The notes under the pieces were generated by a model. The model made no database searches, was not told the origin of the DNA, and saw only the letters and a program-made list of their open reading frames with translations. This document shows positions 14,470 to 21,965 of a DNA stretch of 58,183 nt, piece after piece (the stretch's first letter is position 1; every line of letters begins with the position of its first letter). The stretch covers positions 1-58,183 of the forward strand of contig JBATEU010000236.1 of NCBI GenBank assembly GCA_049664185.1, given 5' to 3'. The DNA is from Candidatus Deferrimicrobium sp. (GTDB lineage: Bacteria > Desulfobacterota > Deferrimicrobia > Deferrimicrobiales > Deferrimicrobiaceae). Both the position numbers and the translations under genes were made by a program.

Positions 14470-14817
14470 ATGGAGAAGACCGATATTTTCGAGCTGCACG
14501 CCGACCTGTGCAAGACCCTCTCGAACCCCAAGCGGCTCATGATCCTCGCCCTGCTGGCCAAGAAGGAGATGAGCGTGGGGGAGATCGCGGAGGTGATCGC
14601 GGTCCCCCTCTCGAACGTGAGCCAGCACCTGGCGCTTCTGAAGGCGCAAAGCCTCGTGCAGTCCCGAAAGGAAGGACAGACCGTCCACTACAGCCTCTCC
14701 GACCGCAGGATCATCCAGGCGTGCACGCTGATCCGGTCCGTCCTGCTGGACAAGATGAAGGAGCGCGGCCAGGTCGCGCAGGAGATCGACCCCCGGTACG
14801 TGGTGGCCACCGTCTGA
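14470..14817 (+). CDS. ArsR/SmtB family transcriptional regulator (two Cys: one in the N-terminal helix, one in the C-terminal helix)
   Basis: 115 aa. LSNPKRLMILALL…MSVGEIAEVI…SNVSQHLALLK…GQTVHYSL is the canonical ArsR winged HTH. Confidence 0.85.
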   Translation: MEKTDIFELHADLCKTLSNPKRLMILALLAKKEMSVGEIAEVIAVPLSNVSQHLALLKAQSLVQSRKEGQTVHYSLSDRRIIQACTLIRSVLLDKMKERGQVAQEIDPRYVVATV

Positions 14818-14863
14818 GCGGCCCTTGGAATCCATTCCGAACGAAGCAGAAGGAGGGAACGTC

Positions 14864-15115
14864 ATGGCTCTGGATCTATCGACCCTGAAAGTGGACAAGA
14901 CGATCGACGCCCGGGCGACGGCGTGCCCCGGGCCGCTTCTCGACGCCAAGCGGGCCATCGCGGCGGTGCCGGTGGGCGGCGTCCTGGAAGTGATGTCTTC
15001 CGACGAGGGGACCAAGGAGGACATCCCCCTCTGGGCGAAGAAGGTGGGGCACGATTTCCTCGGCGACGTGGAGGAGGCCGGCTACTGGCGGCTGTTCGTG
15101 AAGCGGGGAAAATAG
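14864..15115 (+). CDS. tusA: TusA/SirA-like sulfur carrier protein
   Basis: 83 aa from the ATG that follows AAGGAGGG. It has the CPxP active-site motif (ARATACPGPLL) and a typical two-layer alpha/beta size. Confidence 0.85.
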   Translation: MALDLSTLKVDKTIDARATACPGPLLDAKRAIAAVPVGGVLEVMSSDEGTKEDIPLWAKKVGHDFLGDVEEAGYWRLFVKRGK

Positions 15116-15523
15116 GTGGCCACGGTCGCGCCTTCCGGGGTAGGCCGTCCGAAGATCCTGGTCTTCTCCACGAACAACATCTCCGACCCGGGAATCGACC
15201 TGGCGGGGAGTCAGCACATGAGCTACTCCCCTTCCGTCAGGGTGATCAGCGTCCCGTGCTCCGGCGGCATCAACCCGAACTGGGTGCTCTACGCGCTGGA
15301 GGCCGGGTTCGACGGGGTCTTCATCGCCGCGGACGGGGGCGACTGCGCCTACCTCCCCGACTGCACGACCCGGACCGCCCGGATCGCCGAAAGGGCGCAG
15401 GGGATGCTGAAGGAGCGTGGAATGGACCCGCGGCGGGTGAAGATGGCGGCGATCTGCTCCGTCTGCTCCGAGCCGTTCGTGTCGCACATGCGGCAGTTCA
15501 CCGAGGCATTGAGCAAACTGTGA
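15116..15523 (+). CDS. MvhD/FlpD-like hydrogenase iron-sulfur (delta) subunit
   Basis: 135 aa with a GTG start directly after the tusA stop. The VPCSGGINP…AADGGDCAYLPDC pattern is typical of MvhD-type [2Fe-2S] proteins. Confidence 0.8.
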   Translation: MATVAPSGVGRPKILVFSTNNISDPGIDLAGSQHMSYSPSVRVISVPCSGGINPNWVLYALEAGFDGVFIAADGGDCAYLPDCTTRTARIAERAQGMLKERGMDPRRVKMAAICSVCSEPFVSHMRQFTEALSKL

Positions 15524-15681
15524 GGGTCTGTCCAGGAATAAGGTGTGCAGATATGGGCGTCGAGTCGCCCGGCCGGCAAGGCACGAGGAGGGAGAATACC
15601 GTGAGTATTCGACCGACGAGCAACGCAGCCCGCCGGGATGAATCGGCGTCCGGATCGCACAAGTTATTCCTGGACAGGCCC
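15524..15681. mobile_element. MITE-like palindromic insertion / structured intercistronic element
   Basis: A perfect 14-bp terminal inverted repeat, CTGTCCAGGAATAA (15528-15541) and TTATTCCTGGACAG (15664-15677), extends to 18 bp with one G-T pair. TGA flanks both sides (15521-15523 and 15682-15684). The interior holds further hairpins (GAATAC-CGTGA-GTATTC; CCCGGCCGGC/GCCCGCCGGG). Confidence 0.4.
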
Positions 15682-15697
15682 TGAAGGCGGAGACCTT

Positions 15698-20142: not shown

Positions 20143-20384
20143 TGGCGGACGAACGGAGACGGGACCCTTCCGAGGCGATGCGGGACGAGATGGTCATGAA
20201 GGGGAAGATCGCGTCCCTCCTTCGCGAGGAACCCAGGACCATTCCGGAGATCGCCGAGGCGCTGCGGTGCCCGGCCCGCGAGGTCACCCTCTGGGTGATG
20301 GCCCTTCGGCGGTACGGCGTCCTGGAAGAGATGCCGAAGGCGAAGGCGGACGATTACTACCGGTACAAGCCGGCACGGGAATAG
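20142..20384 (+). CDS. Small winged-helix-like protein embedded in the hdr operon (hypothetical)
   Basis: 80 aa. Its ATG shares one nt with the hdrA stop (TGATG) and the next gene starts 9 nt after its stop. IASLLREEPRTIPEIAEALRCPAREVTLWVMALRRYGVLEE resembles a wHTH. Confidence 0.6.
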   Translation: MADERRRDPSEAMRDEMVMKGKIASLLREEPRTIPEIAEALRCPAREVTLWVMALRRYGVLEEMPKAKADDYYRYKPARE

Positions 20385-20393
20385 GAGGCGGGG

Positions 20394-21527
20394 ATGGCGT
20401 ATCGCGTCGAACCCGGGCTGTACCGGGATGTCGCGAAGTTCGGCGGCGGCGACATCACGACCTGCATGAACTGCGGCAACTGCACGGCCGCCTGTCCCCA
20501 GTCCGCGGAGACCGGTGGTTTCCCGCGCCGGATGATCCATCTCCTGCAGGTGGGGCACAGAGGGAAGCTCGCCGGATCCCTCGAACCGTGGCTCTGCTAC
20601 TACTGCGGCGAATGCTCCGACACCTGCCCACGGGATGCGAACCCCGCCGAGACCATGATGGCGGCCCGCCGGTACCTCACGGGGATGTACGATTGGACGG
20701 GCCTGGGGAAGAAGTTCTACGCCTCCCCGGCGTGGGAGATCGGGGCGATCGGACTGGTCGGCCTGTTCGTCGTCGCCCTCTTCGCCCTCTTTCACGGTCC
20801 CGTGGTGACGGACCACGTGGAGCTCAACACCTTCGCCCCCGTGAAATGGGTCGAGATCGGCGACTGGATCCTGGGCGGCATCCTGGCCATTCTCCTTCTA
20901 TCGAACGGATGGCGCATGTACCGCCGGGTGACAGGCTCCTGGAAGGGAGTCCGCATCCCCGCCTCGATGTTCCTCCGGAAGGCACCCGCATTTTTCGGGC
21001 ACTTCGCGACGCAGAAAAAGTGGCGGGAATGCGAAGGACCGAAGACCCGGTGGCTCAAGCATTTCCTTCTGGTCACCGGGTACGTCACGATGATGGCGCT
21101 CGTCATCGTGTTCCTGCGGTGGTTCCAGACCGACGAGATCGTCCCCCTCTATCACCCGACCCGCCTGTTCGGGTACTACGCCACGGCGGCCCTGTTGTAC
21201 GTCACCGTCGATTTCCTTGCGGGCCGCCTGAGGAAACGCGACGCGATCCATAAATTCTCCGAGCCCACCGACTGGGTGTTCCTGATCCTCCTGTTCCTGG
21301 TGGCGCTCACCGGGATCCTGGTGCACGTGTTCCGTCTCGGGGGCCTTCCCCTCGCGACCTATTCCACGTACGTGATCCACCTTGCCATCGTGGTGCCGAT
21401 GCTGGTCGTCGAGGTGCCCTTCGGCAAGTGGGGGCACATGTTCTACCGGCCCTTCGCGGCCTATCTGGCCGCGGTGCGGCAGGGGGGGGCGGAGATCGCC
21501 GCCCGGGAAACAGAACGCGCGGCGTGA
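20394..21527 (+). CDS. QmoC-like membrane subunit: HdrC-like 2x[4Fe-4S] domain fused to an HdrE/NarI/DsrM-like multi-TM (haem b type) domain
   Basis: N-terminal CMNCGNCTAACP and CYYCGECSDTCP motifs are followed by about 5-6 hydrophobic helices with conserved His residues (HLAIVVPM…KWGHMFYRP). Confidence 0.8.
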   Translation: MAYRVEPGLYRDVAKFGGGDITTCMNCGNCTAACPQSAETGGFPRRMIHLLQVGHRGKLAGSLEPWLCYYCGECSDTCPRDANPAETMMAARRYLTGMYDWTGLGKKFYASPAWEIGAIGLVGLFVVALFALFHGPVVTDHVELNTFAPVKWVEIGDWILGGILAILLLSNGWRMYRRVTGSWKGVRIPASMFLRKAPAFFGHFATQKKWRECEGPKTRWLKHFLLVTGYVTMMALVIVFLRWFQTDEIVPLYHPTRLFGYYATAALLYVTVDFLAGRLRKRDAIHKFSEPTDWVFLILLFLVALTGILVHVFRLGGLPLATYSTYVIHLAIVVPMLVVEVPFGKWGHMFYRPFAAYLAAVRQGGAEIAARETERAA

Positions 21528-21590
21528 GACCGGGCGCACCCCCCGGAAATCGCATGCCGTTGTTCCACACATTCCACAAGGAGGGTTGAC

Positions 21591-21965
21591 ATGGCAGAAG
21601 GAAAAGAGGAGAAGATCGTCGTCATCGGCACACACGGCGGGGAGGACCCCGATCGGGCGACCTTGCCGTTCGTGGTCGCGAACGCCGCGCTGGCCATGGA
21701 CGTCAAGACCACCGTCATCCTGCAGGGGAACGCGGTGACGCTGGCGGTGAAGGGAGCCGGCGAGAACGTCCAGGGGATCGGCTTCCCCCCCCTGAAGGAC
21801 CTGATCGCGAGTTATTTCGCCCAGGGGGGGCAGATCCTTCTCTGCACGCCCTGCGTCAAGGGCCGGAACATCGCCCCGGAGACATTGGTAAGTAGCTCGT
21901 CCCTGGTCGCCGCGGCCCGGGTCGTCCAGGAGTGCCTCGAGGCGAAGGCCGTCCTGAACTACTGA
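21591..21965 (+). CDS. Cytoplasmic DsrE/DsrF-like sulfur-relay family protein
   Basis: 124 aa. KIVVIGTHGGEDPDRATLPFVVANAALAMD…LLCTPCVKGR is a typical DsrE-fold pattern with a conserved Cys. Confidence 0.8.
   Translation: MAEGKEEKIVVIGTHGGEDPDRATLPFVVANAALAMDVKTTVILQGNAVTLAVKGAGENVQGIGFPPLKDLIASYFAQGGQILLCTPCVKGRNIAPETLVSSSSLVAAARVVQECLEAKAVLNY

What the first reader, a model, noticed from the sequence alone, without database searches (positions are those of the whole stretch)
14470..21965. Unassigned Hdr/Qmo-type membrane complex bracketed by sulfur-relay proteins, divergent from the benzoyl-CoA reductase operon
Eight co-directional, mostly translationally coupled genes make up the cluster: ArsR regulator, TusA, MvhD-like, a 904-codon HdrA-like protein with an inserted GltD/NfnB-type NAD(P)H module and an in-frame TGA, a second HdrA, an 80-aa wHTH protein, a QmoC-like FeS/multi-TM subunit, and DsrE.

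The core (two HdrA paralogs plus QmoC-like plus MvhD) resembles QmoABC. However, I see no aprAB, no CCG-domain HdrB/HdrD catalytic subunit, and no sHdr genes (hdrB/C, lbpA) in the window. Instead TusA and DsrE flank the redox subunits.

The cluster shares a 427-bp divergent control region with oah-bcrCBAD, and that operon lacks its own ferredoxin or ferredoxin-regenerating genes here. MvhD/HdrA(Sec) modules also recall BamE/BamF of class II benzoyl-CoA reductases.

There are two non-exclusive hypotheses. (a) It is a quinone/NAD(P)H-linked, possibly flavin-based bifurcating complex acting on protein-bound persulfide carried by TusA/DsrE. (b) It is a low-potential electron supply for aromatic ring reduction. 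As far as I know, neither is a described system.
Basis: partly seen in the sequence, partly recalled or inferred. Interest (0 to 1): 0.85.

Follow-up and report, generated by a model that had tools for sequence, protein, structure and literature searches.

The report
TusA/DsrE-linked Qmo-like membrane redox complex
A seven-gene operon, conserved from Chloroflexota to Planctomycetota, joins two sulfur-carrier proteins to a quinone-linked flavin/iron-sulfur membrane complex; it is real, widespread and apparently uncharacterised, it has no conserved link to the benzoate genes beside it, and its 'selenocysteine' codon is a strain-specific point change.

Summary

**Conservation.** I fetched 80 species-genome loci seeded on the QmoC-like gene, and 62 had enough flanking sequence to judge. 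Of these, 45 carry TusA, MvhD-like, two HdrA paralogues, the 80-aa wHTH protein, QmoC-like and DsrE around the QmoC-like gene. They span at least seven phylum-level groups. No other locus has bcr or oah beside the cluster, so the benzoyl-CoA link is incidental. No apr, dsr or HdrB (CCG) gene is co-conserved.

**Variable parts.** The GltD/NfnB insert (the 'HdrL' form) occurs in only 15 of the 62.

**The TGA.** It is not a selenocysteine codon. A 99.6 % identical contig has TGC, and all 16 HdrL-form loci examined (that contig included) have TGC or TGT at this invariant cysteine.

**New observation.** The MvhD-like subunit has lost part or all of the canonical MvhD cysteine set. It carries a CxxC that is invariant in 60 of 60 sequences and absent from canonical MvhD in TusA-less loci.

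**Best reading (inferred).** The complex exchanges electrons between the menaquinone pool, NAD(P)H or ferredoxin, and sulfur bound to TusA/DsrE. The MvhD-like CxxC may stand in for the missing HdrB.

It is closest to the 'type II Qmo' of unknown function and is a new variant of a known kind.

The parts
14044..14469 (.). 426-bp divergent spacer between oah (minus strand) and the ArsR gene. A sigma-70-like site lies at 14393-14420 (+).
   Evidence: The site matches 10 of 12 consensus positions; this is a pattern match only. The adjacency to oah/bcr is not conserved in other genomes.
14470..14817 (+). ArsR/SmtB-family regulator, 115 aa.
   Evidence: NF033788 at 87 bits. Cys14 is conserved in 30/38 and Cys85 in 28/38 orthologues. 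These are not the SqrR/BigR cysteine positions. The gene is present in 34 of 62 loci; other loci have sigma-54 or LysR regulators nearby instead.
14864..15115 (+). TusA sulfur-carrier protein, 83 aa.
   Evidence: PF01206 at 76 bits. Cys21 in the A-C-P-G-P motif is invariant in 57/57. Best solved relative is Thermoplasma Ta1170, 1PAV.
15116..15523 (+). MvhD-like (FlpD-fold) subunit, 135 aa, of a divergent subfamily with an invariant C114-x-x-C117.
   Evidence: PF02662 at 112 bits. The canonical C-C-N-W-C and G-C-H-x-G-D-C cysteines are lost or only partly kept. A-I-C-[ST]-V-C is present in 60/60. Canonical MvhD proteins in TusA-less loci lack this CxxC.
15523..15682 (.). 160-bp insertion with 26-nt terminal inverted repeats in the mvhD-hdrL spacer. 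It is lineage-specific and probably not part of the system.
   Evidence: Found only in the window, L001 and L005. Relatives L007 and L021 have a 16-nt spacer here.
15698..18412 (+). HdrL: a QmoA-like HdrA flavoprotein with a GltD/NfnB-type NAD(P)H/FAD/FeS module nested in its inserted ferredoxin domain. 904 codons.
   Evidence: All cofactor cysteines are invariant: C53/C56, C106-116, C627-637 and C719/732/736/737 in 43/43. The cysteines specific to the long form are invariant in 14/14.
16175..16177 (+). In-frame TGA at the position of invariant Cys160 (a GltD-type cluster ligand). It is a strain-specific point variant, not a conserved selenocysteine.
   Evidence: L001 (99.6 % identical) has TGC, and all 16 HdrL-form loci have TGC or TGT. 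The downstream fold scores z = -0.56. The window has no tRNA-Sec and no Rfam match.
18409..20142 (+). HdrA2: QmoB-like HdrA with an N-terminal 4-Cys domain, FAD, the HdrA-type cluster and a C-terminal 2x[4Fe-4S] ferredoxin domain. No fused MvhD domain. 577 aa.
   Evidence: (374 bits to 5ODC_A). C11, C13, C46, C71, C304, C322, C326 and C327 are conserved, and the two C-terminal motifs mostly so (C509 17/50, C543 42/50).
20142..20384 (+). 80-aa winged-helix protein, translationally coupled between hdrA2 and qmoC. Probably an accessory subunit.
   Evidence: Its ORF family occurs in 68 of the 80 loci. It has no conserved cysteine. The family is small and dedicated: 266 representatives among 1.84 billion proteins. 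AlphaFold2 pLDDT is 85.7, and the fold is a generic wHTH.
20394..21527 (+). QmoC-like subunit: an HdrC-like 2x[4Fe-4S] domain followed by a multi-helix membrane domain with conserved histidines.
   Evidence: NF038018 at 189 bits against a cutoff of 300. C24/27/30/34 and C68/71/74/78 are invariant, as are H134, H223, H254, H286, H329 and H348. A hydropathy scan finds five hydrophobic segments in the membrane domain.
21591..21965 (+). DsrE-family sulfur-transfer protein, 124 aa.
   Evidence: PF02635 at 56 bits. Cys85 is conserved in 57/58. Best solved relative is the Sulfolobus DsrE/DsrF-like protein 3MC3, with the cysteine aligned. Present in 51 of 62 loci.
22042..22057 (+). Terminator-like hairpin followed by a T run, after dsrE.
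   Evidence: This is a pattern match only.

Best explanation
**What it is (shown).** This is one operon encoding a membrane-anchored Qmo-type complex. Its parts are two HdrA-family flavoproteins (HdrA1/HdrL, QmoA-like; HdrA2, QmoB-like), a separate MvhD-like subunit, a small winged-helix subunit and a QmoC-like FeS/haem-b quinone module. Two sulfur carriers, TusA and a DsrE3-like protein, always travel with them, usually under an ArsR-type regulator. It is a self-contained, widely transferred module. It is distinct from the canonical APS-reductase-linked QmoABC, and it has no conserved link to the neighbouring benzoyl-CoA reductase genes.

**How it probably works (inferred).**
1. Sulfane sulfur or thiosulfonate is carried on DsrE-Cys85 and TusA-Cys21.
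2. TusA presents it to the invariant CxxC of the MvhD-like subunit. By analogy with the methanogen Hdr-Mvh structure, that subunit should sit next to the N-terminal [4Fe-4S] of HdrA2.
3. The CxxC plus that cluster act as the thiol/persulfide redox site, taking the place of the missing HdrB. The chemistry would resemble ferredoxin:thioredoxin reductase.
4. Electrons pass through the HdrA flavins and FeS chain to or from menaquinone via QmoC. The second redox partner is ferredoxin, reached through the ferredoxin domains. In the HdrL variant present here it is NAD(P)H, reached through the nested GltD/NfnB module. The two flavins make bifurcation or confurcation possible.

**Direction and role.** The net reaction I favour is reductive: carrier-bound persulfide or thiosulfonate is reduced to H2S (plus sulfite). 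This would serve cytoplasmic sulfur-compound respiration or detoxification of reactive sulfur. The direction has not been shown.
For: - **Gene model and domains:**
- **Synteny:** TusA 54, MvhD-like 57, HdrA 58, wHTH 53 and DsrE 51 of 62 fully sampled loci; all six in 45 of 62. The loci come from Deferrimicrobia, Gemmatimonadales, Acidobacteriota, Planctomycetota, Verrucomicrobiota, Chloroflexota and Desulfobacterales.
- **Carrier active sites:** TusA C21 is invariant in 57/57 and DsrE C85 in 57/58.
- **Type of carriers:** DsrE and TusA most resemble archaeal proteins; DsrE's best solved relative is the Sulfolobus protein 3MC3. From my own knowledge of Liu et al. 2014 (cited in PMC10504309), DsrE/TusA homologues of the archaeon Metallosphaera cuprina transfer thiosulfate.
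- **Electron wire:** the FeS and flavin motifs are almost fully conserved in HdrA1, HdrA2 and QmoC.
- **MvhD-like CxxC:** invariant in 60/60, while the canonical MvhD cysteines are lost. Chloroflexota members keep only the CxxC. Canonical MvhD proteins in TusA-less loci have no CxxC.
- **No HdrB:** no CCG-type subunit in the window, and none among the neighbour families shared by three or more loci that I annotated.
- **Further sulfur context:** 7-8 Anaerolineales loci add a second TusA plus a YeeE/YedE sulfur transporter directly downstream. In the window itself, rhodanese, a second DsrE and an octahaem tetrathionate-reductase-family cytochrome follow.
- **Not Apr-linked:** the qmoC model scores below its cutoff, and genomes of the MBNT15/Deferrimicrobium phylum lack dissimilatory sulfate reduction (PMC9386147).
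Against: - There are no biochemical data for any member, and I found no cultured host.
- The role of the CxxC is inferred. It could instead supply ligands for a rewired FeS cluster in the subfamily that also keeps C48 and C77.
- The single-sequence model of the MvhD-like protein was poor (pLDDT 62), so no geometry is available. No multimer model could be run.
- The ArsR cysteines are not at the known persulfide-sensor positions.
- Seventeen of the 62 loci lack one or more of the parts.
- The 80 loci are the best matches to this window's QmoC out of more than 588, so they are biased towards this architecture.
- Direction, substrate (persulfide, thiosulfonate or a protein disulfide) and bifurcation are all unproven.
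- In this window hdrL carries a stop codon, so this particular copy may be defective or mis-sequenced.
Confidence: 0.5

Rival explanations
1. It is an ordinary QmoABC that passes electrons from menaquinol to APS reductase, with aprBA simply encoded elsewhere in the genome.
For: It has two HdrA paralogues plus a QmoC-like subunit, and some databases label homologues 'QmoC'.
Against: - The qmoC equivalog model scores 189 bits against a 300-bit cutoff.
- The MvhD domain is a separate, divergent protein rather than being fused to QmoB.
- No apr or sat gene is in the window or among the conserved neighbours I annotated in 80 loci.
- The host phylum MBNT15 has no dissimilatory sulfate-reduction pathway (PMC9386147).
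- Anaerolineales and Planctomycetota, which carry the cluster, are not known sulfate reducers (my own knowledge).
Confidence: 0.03
2. It is a low-potential electron supply (ferredoxin regeneration) for the adjacent class I benzoyl-CoA reductase.
For: It sits in divergent orientation with a 426-bp shared spacer, and the ORFs scanned around bcrCBAD include no ferredoxin gene.
Against: - oah and bcr are found beside the cluster only in L001, the same species as the window.
- They are absent from the 4 kb upstream in close relatives L005, L021, L011, L012 and L013, and from all other loci.
- The cluster occurs in many lineages with no bcr context.
Confidence: 0.03
3. It is a sulfur-independent, energy-conserving NAD(P)H/ferredoxin:menaquinone oxidoreductase, possibly bifurcating. 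TusA and DsrE would serve only in regulation, assembly or cofactor supply.
For: There is a complete flavin/FeS/haem wire with no recognisable substrate-converting subunit. The HdrL form has an NAD(P)H module. A flavodoxin lies downstream in Desulfobacterales loci.
Against: - TusA and DsrE are co-conserved in the operon in more than 80 % of loci, with invariant catalytic cysteines.
- TusA is translationally abutted to the MvhD-like gene.
- The MvhD-like subunit has exchanged its cluster ligands for a CxxC only where TusA is present.
- YeeE/TusA2 extensions occur in Anaerolineales.
Confidence: 0.15
4. It works oxidatively, like the sHdr system. TusA and DsrE deliver sulfane sulfur, which is oxidised with electrons passing to menaquinone.
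For: TusA plus a DsrE3-type relay is the delivery route of sHdr systems (my own knowledge of the Dahl-group work). DsrE's best solved relative is the Sulfolobus protein 3MC3.
Against: - There is no HdrB/CCG subunit. No lipoate-binding protein turned up in the ORFs I scanned in the window or among the conserved neighbours I annotated.
- No site for oxygen-atom insertion is evident.
- Many hosts are anaerobes of sediments and soils.
Confidence: 0.12

Closest known systems
QmoABC (type I) of sulfate reducers and Chlorobi
   Same: Two HdrA-like flavoproteins plus a membrane subunit with an HdrC-like 2x[4Fe-4S] domain and a haem-b, quinone-interacting domain. It has no HdrB.
   Different: - The QmoC-like protein scores below the equivalog cutoff.
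- MvhD is a separate, divergent CxxC protein, not a C-terminal domain of QmoB.
- An extra wHTH subunit is present.
- TusA and DsrE are linked to the cluster in place of aprBA.
'Type II Qmo' (Neukirchen et al. 2023, PMC10504309, which cites earlier work on Vulcanisaeta and Ammonifex)
   Same: Its QmoA/B-like proteins are closer to true HdrA than to bacterial QmoAB. It is reported in organisms with or without Dsr/Apr, and its function is explicitly left open. HdrA2 here scores 374 bits to methanogen HdrA.
   Different: I could not place these sequences in that paper's trees. The paper's text and its searchable supplements do not describe linkage to MvhD, DsrE or a wHTH protein, or the CxxC-type MvhD.
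sHdr sulfur-oxidising heterodisulfide-reductase-like system with its TusA/DsrE3 relay (Hyphomicrobium, Metallosphaera)
   Same: TusA and DsrE3-like carriers are encoded with an HdrA-containing complex, often under an ArsR-type repressor (PMC10451225 and PMC12423496, listed).
   Different: No HdrB1/B2, HdrC1/C2 or LbpA. It has a membrane QmoC-like anchor and two HdrA paralogues. The ArsR cysteines lie at different positions.
HdrL/MvhD of Desulfobacterium autotrophicum (Strittmatter et al. 2009, PMC2702500)
   Same: An HdrA/glutamate-synthase-type fusion with an NADH site, encoded next to an mvhD gene.
   Different: Those HdrL proteins are soluble, some contain selenocysteine, and they are not linked to QmoC, TusA or DsrE. 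Here the insert is optional (15 of 62 loci) and Cys-encoded.
HdrABC-MvhAGD of methanogens (PDB 5ODC and others)
   Same: HdrA2 keeps the N-terminal cluster domain, FAD, the HdrA cluster and the C-terminal ferredoxin domain. The MvhD fold is kept, and the QmoC N-domain resembles HdrC.
   Different: No HdrB and no hydrogenase. The MvhD cluster ligands are replaced. HdrA2 lacks the DCSxC motif. The complex is membrane-anchored.
YTD cluster / YeeE-YeeD (TsuA-TsuB) sulfur uptake
   Same: TusA-like plus DsrE-like plus a YeeE/YedE transporter. In 7-8 Anaerolineales loci a YeeE and a second TusA directly follow the cluster.
   Different: The window has no YeeE. The YTD cluster has no Hdr/Qmo genes.

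Membership tests
QmoABC (canonical, APS-reductase-associated) | The QmoC protein reaches the curated equivalog score. | tested here: not met
   NF038018 scores 188.8 bits against a cutoff of 300, although it aligns over residues 10-355.
QmoABC (canonical, APS-reductase-associated) | Two HdrA-like flavoproteins plus a membrane FeS/haem-b subunit, with no HdrB. | tested here: met
QmoABC (canonical, APS-reductase-associated) | QmoB carries a fused C-terminal MvhD-like domain. | tested here: not met
   HdrA2 ends after its ferredoxin domain. MvhD-like is a separate gene two genes upstream of hdrA2.
QmoABC (canonical, APS-reductase-associated) | Genomic or functional linkage to aprBA/sat. 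| tested here: not met
   None is present in the scanned ORFs of the 58-kb window. None is among the annotated neighbour ORF families shared by three or more of the 80 loci. The host phylum lacks the pathway (PMC9386147). Whole genomes could not be scanned.
HdrABC / sHdr heterodisulfide-reductase(-like) complexes | An HdrB or HdrD subunit with CCG domains (non-cubane clusters). | tested here: not met
   A tblastn search with an HdrD CCG domain gave a best E-value of 0.26. A six-frame CCG motif scan of the window found nothing.
sHdr system | A lipoate-binding protein (LbpA) and duplicated hdrC/hdrB genes. | tested here: not met
   Not among the Pfam hits of the window ORFs scanned, nor among the conserved neighbours annotated. 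Not every ORF was scanned.
HdrL (HdrA/GltD fusion) | HdrA split by a GltD/NfnB-type NAD(P)H-FAD-FeS module, with an mvhD gene adjacent. | tested here: met
   PRK12771 at 485 bits over residues 140-644. HdrA2-type models cover 1-160 and 620-898. The long-form cysteines are invariant in 14/14.
Selenoprotein HdrA/HdrL | A conserved in-frame UGA with a SECIS element, at the HdrA DCSxC site. | tested here: not met
   The UGA is at GltD-type Cys160. It is TGC or TGT in all 16 HdrL-form loci examined, including the 99.6 % identical contig. The downstream fold has z = -0.56.
MvhD / FlpD | The FlpD fold (Pfam). | tested here: met
   PF02662 at 111.8 bits, covering the full length.
MvhD / FlpD | The canonical cysteine set (C-C-x-x-C, V-M-C-S-G, G-C-H-x-G-D-C) for the [2Fe-2S] cluster. 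| tested here: not met
   The window has S-T-N-N-I-S, V-P-C-S-G and A-A-D-G-G-D-C. Only the new C114xxC117 is invariant. Which canonical cysteines actually ligate the cluster is taken from memory, not checked here.
TusA | The conserved Cys-Pro-x-Pro active site. | tested here: met
   A-C21-P-G-P is invariant in 57/57.
DsrE family (DsrE3-like) | The conserved active-site cysteine. | tested here: met
   Cys85 is conserved in 57/58 and aligns with the cysteine of 3MC3. Assignment to the DsrE3 subgroup is by best hit only.
Class II benzoyl-CoA reductase Bam complex (BamE/BamF) | Linkage to BamB (a tungsten AOR-type subunit) and to BamC, D, G, H and I. | tested here: not met
   No such genes were found in the scanned ORFs of the window. 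The only BCR present is class I bcrCBAD, and its adjacency is not conserved.

The most novel reading that the evidence does not exclude
The CxxC-type MvhD-like subunit, paired with the N-terminal [4Fe-4S] of HdrA2, is a new kind of catalytic site that replaces HdrB. The module would then be a previously unrecognised, quinone-coupled and possibly flavin-bifurcating reductase of protein-carried sulfur (TusA/DsrE persulfide or thiosulfonate). That would give Chloroflexota, Planctomycetota, Acidobacteriota, Gemmatimonadota, Deferrimicrobia and Desulfobacterales a common cytoplasmic route for respiring or detoxifying zero-valent sulfur and thiosulfate, independent of Dsr, Apr, Psr and Phs.
Probability: 0.25. 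Interest if true: 0.85.

Novelty: new variant of a known kind. Interest (0 to 1): 0.65.

Why it matters
**Gap in annotation.** HdrA/Qmo-type complexes are central to anaerobic energy conservation. Apart from the APS-reductase-linked QmoABC, most bacterial versions have no assigned substrate.

**What this adds.** This module is abundant in soil and sediment metagenomes. The QmoC-like protein has thousands of homologues and relatives in more than 588 species genomes. It crosses many phyla that are not counted as sulfur cyclers. Its two sulfur carriers are fixed parts of the operon.

**If the reading is right.** Sulfur-intermediate turnover in anoxic soils and sediments is being under-annotated. 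It would also give a second answer, besides HdrB, to how FeS/flavin complexes act on sulfur-sulfur bonds.

**Markers for surveys.** The wHTH protein and the A-I-C-[ST]-V-C MvhD motif are simple, specific markers for finding the module.

**Annotation warnings.**
- The link to aromatic-ring reduction is a neighbourhood accident.
- The TGA is not a selenocysteine codon.

Tried and rejected
**Selenocysteine reading.** Rejected. The position is a Cys codon in all 16 HdrL-form loci and in a 99.6 % identical contig. The downstream RNA folds no better than shuffled sequence. The window has no tRNA-Sec and no Rfam match.

**Bcr electron-supply idea.** Rejected, because the adjacency is not conserved.

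**'Second Qmo set' downstream in L080.** It is a MetF-HdrA-MvhD-HdrD cluster of the Wood-Ljungdahl type, not aprBA-qmoABC.

**Literature.** Eight full-text searches found no paper describing TusA-MvhD-HdrA-HdrA-QmoC-DsrE clusters. The nearest statement is the one on 'type II Qmo'. Pereira et al. 2011 was not in the library. NCBIfam lists a 'TsoR' ArsR-type model as a weak hit; I found no paper on it.

**Search for a cultured host.** A second homology search seeded on a Desulfosarcinaceae copy returned only MAG and metagenome proteins.

**wHTH fold.** The model is good (pLDDT 85.7), but Foldseek returns only generic ArsR/MarR-type winged helices at E of about 2e-3. DsrD (1WQ2) appears at rank 37, which is a lead and not evidence.

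**MvhD-like structure.** The single-sequence AlphaFold2 model was too poor (pLDDT 62) to measure distances between cysteines.

**ArsR as a known persulfide sensor.** Not supported. Its conserved cysteines (14 and 85) do not align with the SqrR/BigR pair.

Full report
**1.

ORF listing and translation give eight co-directional genes between 14470 and 21965. They are ArsR (14470-14817), TusA (14864-15115), MvhD-like (15116-15523), a 904-codon HdrA-like gene (15698-18412), a second HdrA (18409-20142), an 80-aa protein (20142-20384), a QmoC-like gene (20394-21527) and DsrE (21591-21965). The spacers are 46, 0, 174, -4, -1, 9 and 63 nt, so most junctions are translationally coupled. The NCBI gene calls on a near-identical public contig (L001, GCA_049286745.1) are the same.

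Pfam and NCBIfam confirm every domain assignment. The large protein is an HdrA whose two halves (residues 1-160 and 620-898) are separated by a complete GltD/NfnB-type module (PRK12771, 485 bits, just under its 516-bit cutoff). This is the 'HdrL' architecture first described in Desulfobacterium autotrophicum (PMC2702500).

On the minus strand upstream lie oah, bcrC, bcrB, bcrA and bcrD, all above their equivalog cutoffs except bcrC. I placed bcrC by position and reading frame.

I scanned about 35 of the larger ORFs in the rest of the 58 kb. They encode CoA ligases, a thiolase, ABC transporters, ligA, pgk and similar genes. None is apr, dsr, sat or lbpA. A direct search for CCG/HdrB domains found nothing.

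**2. The TGA is not a selenocysteine codon.**

The window and L001 are 99.6 % identical over 20 kb. One of their 76 differences is C-to-A at position 16177, which turns TGC into TGA. All 16 HdrL-form loci retrieved, L001 included, have TGC or TGT there. The residue, Cys160, is invariant in the long-form alignment.

It lies in the GltD-type cluster motif (…SPC-x3-C-P…). It is not at the HdrA DCSxC site, where I recall the selenocysteine of methanogen HdrA lying; I did not check that position here.

The 60 nt downstream fold no better than shuffled sequence (z = -0.56). The window has no tRNA-Sec and no Rfam match.

The TGA is therefore a strain variant, a nonsense mutation or an assembly error. 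If it is real, hdrL is broken in this strain. A GTG restart three codons later could give a split protein, but that protein would lack a cluster ligand.

**3. The cluster is a conserved, widely distributed module.**

- *Spread of the QmoC-like protein.* It has more than 4,000 homologues at E ≤ 1e-10. A scan of one genome per species found at least 588 relatives, of which the best 80 loci were fetched with 10-kb flanks.
- *Synteny.* tblastn with the window proteins, and an all-against-all clustering of locus ORFs, give the same picture. Of 62 loci with enough flank, TusA is present in 54, MvhD-like in 57, HdrA in 58, the wHTH protein in 53 and DsrE in 51. All six parts occur together in 45.
- *Hosts.* By record title these are Deferrimicrobium/'delta proteobacterium' (70-92 % identity; the window's own lineage, phylum MBNT15), Gemmatimonadales, Acidobacteriota (Bryobacterales, Thermoanaerobaculia), Planctomycetota (Phycisphaerae, Thermoguttaceae), Verrucomicrobia, Chloroflexota (many Anaerolineales) and Desulfobacterales.
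- *Regulators vary.* ArsR is present in 34 of 62 loci. A sigma-54 activator lies nearby, mainly in Desulfobacterales and Acidobacteriota, and a LysR gene lies downstream in Chloroflexota.
- *The GltD/NfnB insert is optional.* Only 15 of 62 loci have it. Elsewhere HdrA1 is a QmoA-sized protein of about 420 aa, with a plain 2x[4Fe-4S] ferredoxin insert at the same point.
- *The wHTH family is small and dedicated.* It has 266 representatives among 1.84 billion proteins.

**4. What is not conserved.**

- oah and bcr are adjacent only in L001, which is the same species as the window. They are absent from the upstream 4 kb of the close relatives L005, L021, L011, L012 and L013, and from every other locus.
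- The window's downstream genes are also not conserved beside the cluster: a histidine kinase, a double rhodanese, multihaem cytochromes, a second secreted-type DsrE and an octahaem tetrathionate-reductase-family cytochrome.
- No neighbour ORF family occurs in more than about a quarter of the loci. Of the neighbour families shared by at least three loci, the ones I annotated are regulators, YeeE, a second TusA, flavodoxin, MinD/NifX-like FeS-maturation proteins, an NrfC/NrfD/cytochrome set, a dihydroorotate-dehydrogenase-like protein and transporters. None is Apr, Dsr or HdrB. Several of these families were left unannotated.
- An apparent second Hdr/Qmo set in L080 is a MetF-HdrA-MvhD-HdrD cluster.

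**5. Anatomy relevant to mechanism.**

- *TusA and DsrE.* TusA Cys21 (A-C-P-G-P) is invariant in 57/57 and DsrE Cys85 is conserved in 57/58. Their best solved relatives are archaeal: Thermoplasma Ta1170, and the Sulfolobus DsrE/DsrF-like protein 3MC3 with the cysteine aligned.
- *QmoC-like.* The eight cluster cysteines are invariant, as are six histidines in the membrane domain.
- *HdrA1.* It keeps the FAD motif, DCSxC, two ferredoxin clusters and the HdrA-type C-x-G-S-R-…-C-S-x-x-C-C cluster in 43/43.
- *HdrA2.* It keeps a 4-Cys N-terminal domain, FAD, the HdrA cluster and the C-terminal ferredoxin motifs, but has no DCSxC. It scores 374 bits to methanogen HdrA.
- *MvhD-like subunit (new point).* Canonical MvhD proteins read F-C-C-N-W-C … V-M-C-S-G … G-C-H-x-G-D-C-H-Y … W-I-S-A-S-E-G. 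That includes those beside QmoC-like genes in TusA-less loci (Methanoperedens, Bacteroidales bins and others) and the solved structures. In the TusA-linked clusters these cysteines are partly or wholly lost. The window has S-T-N-N-I-S, V-P-C-S-G and A-A-D-G-G-D-C, and some Chloroflexota members have none of them. The W-I-S-A-S-E-G stretch is replaced by A-I-C-[ST]-V-C, which is invariant in 60/60.

So the only universally conserved cysteines of this subunit form a CxxC, and it appears exactly where TusA is present.

**6. Most likely mechanism.**

*Shown:* a complete, conserved flavin/FeS/haem wire; two conserved cysteine-based sulfur carriers; no HdrB; and a CxxC-type MvhD.

*Inferred:*
- In the methanogen complex (as I recall its structure; not checked here), MvhD docks beside the N-terminal cluster of HdrA. 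By analogy, the CxxC here would sit next to the HdrA2 N-domain [4Fe-4S]. Together they would form a cluster-plus-dithiol site similar to that of ferredoxin:thioredoxin reductase.
- TusA, loaded via DsrE, would present persulfide or thiosulfonate sulfur to that site.
- Electrons would run between this site, the two flavins, menaquinone (via QmoC) and ferredoxin. In the HdrL form the last partner would be NAD(P)H.
- A reductive direction, releasing H2S, makes thermodynamic sense. NAD(P)H or ferredoxin would be the donor, and quinone would be the co-acceptor or co-donor in a bifurcating or confurcating scheme. This is untested.

*Supporting sulfur context:* YeeE plus a second TusA follow the cluster in 7-8 Anaerolineales loci. 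Rhodanese, DsrE and tetrathionate-reductase-type genes follow it in the window.

The wHTH protein has no conserved cysteine and a generic winged-helix fold. Its fixed, translationally coupled position suggests an accessory subunit. DsrD offers a precedent for a small winged-helix partner of a sulfur enzyme, but it appears only at rank 37 in the fold search.

**7. Comparison with known systems.**

The complex works most like a Qmo complex, but it fails three of four tests for membership of canonical QmoABC. The qmoC score is below cutoff, there is no fused MvhD domain, and there is no Apr linkage. MBNT15 genomes lack dissimilatory sulfate reduction (PMC9386147).

It fits the description of 'type II Qmo': HdrA-like, found with or without Apr/Dsr, function open (PMC10504309). 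I could not place it in those trees. That paper's text and searchable supplements do not describe the MvhD, DsrE or wHTH linkage or the CxxC MvhD.

It shares the TusA/DsrE3 relay idea with sHdr systems but lacks HdrB, HdrC and LbpA. Its HdrL subunit matches the D. autotrophicum type, except that it has no selenocysteine.

**8. Verdict.**

- Hypothesis (a) is the best-supported reading and is sharpened by the CxxC finding.
- Hypothesis (b) and the selenocysteine reading are rejected.
- The system is a new, unusually widespread variant of the Qmo/Hdr kind, with no biochemical characterisation that I could find.

The main uncertainties are the substrate, the direction, the role of the CxxC, and whether specialists have already catalogued this cluster in literature that was not searchable here.

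Noticed in passing
window 15523-15682: A 160-bp element with 26-nt terminal inverted repeats (88 % complementary) sits in the mvhD-hdrL spacer. It is present only in the window, L001 and L005. Relatives L007 and L021 have a 16-nt spacer there. It looks like a small MITE-like insertion or an acquired hairpin inside the operon.
   Followed up: partly
window 22180-30756: Downstream neighbourhood with a sulfur/cytochrome flavour:
- histidine kinase (22180-23787)
- double-rhodanese protein (24039-25313)
- multihaem cytochrome (25332-26663)
- a second DsrE-family protein with an N-terminal hydrophobic leader (26780-27274, minus strand)
- sigma-54 activator
- DUF3373 protein
- octahaem tetrathionate-reductase-family cytochrome (29071-30756)

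This set is not conserved next to the cluster in other genomes.
   Followed up: partly
window 8243-14043 (minus strand): A complete Thauera-type class I (ATP-dependent) benzoyl-CoA reductase operon, oah-bcrCBAD, lies in what appears to be an MBNT15/Deferrimicrobium genome. No ferredoxin was seen among the ORFs scanned around it. bcrC gave no NCBIfam hit because the listed ORF was in a different frame, so I located it by position and translation only.
   Followed up: partly
L048, L058, L060, L063, L069, L075, L082, L084 (about 1.6-3 kb downstream of the qmoC start): In Anaerolineales the cluster is extended by a second TusA-like gene. In seven of these eight loci (not L084) a YeeE/YedE 'Sulphur transport' (PF04143) membrane protein follows as well. 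This is a TsuA/TsuB-like uptake pair fused onto the operon.
   Followed up: partly
L049, L053, L056, L061, L062, L066: QmoC-like genes also occur without TusA/DsrE, in a different order (HdrA-QmoC-HdrA-MvhD or QmoC-HdrA-HdrA-MvhD). These hosts are Methanoperedens and Bacteroidales/Eubacteriales-labelled bins, and their MvhD proteins are canonical. They may be a sister architecture with another partner.
   Followed up: partly
L080 13612-18770: In a Desulfosarcinaceae MAG, a MetF-HdrA-(HdrA/MvhD)-HdrD set lies 2 kb downstream of the TusA-linked cluster. This is the methylene-THF reductase type. At first it looked like a second Qmo.
   Followed up: yes
L005, L006, L019, L034 (record titles): Several contigs carry taxon labels that do not fit their clusters: 'Actinomycetota', 'Rikenellaceae', 'Chthonomonas calidirosea' and 'Blastopirellula marina'. 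Their QmoC-like proteins are 92, 87, 63 and 57 % identical to the window's, and the clusters resemble those of loci labelled Deferrimicrobium, Acidobacteriota or Planctomycetota. Mis-binning or mislabelling is likely.
   Followed up: no
window 17665-17725 and 19509-19593: The 76 differences between the window and L001 are not evenly spread. Two dense patches of substitutions lie inside hdrL and hdrA2, one of them with a compensating 1-nt deletion and insertion. This suggests recombination between strains or a chimeric consensus in one of the assemblies.
   Followed up: no
L018-L022, L039 (downstream of qmoC): Acidobacteriota loci carry two or three tandem DsrE-family genes after qmoC. In L018-L020 and L022 a cytidylate-kinase-like protein lies among them.
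   Followed up: no
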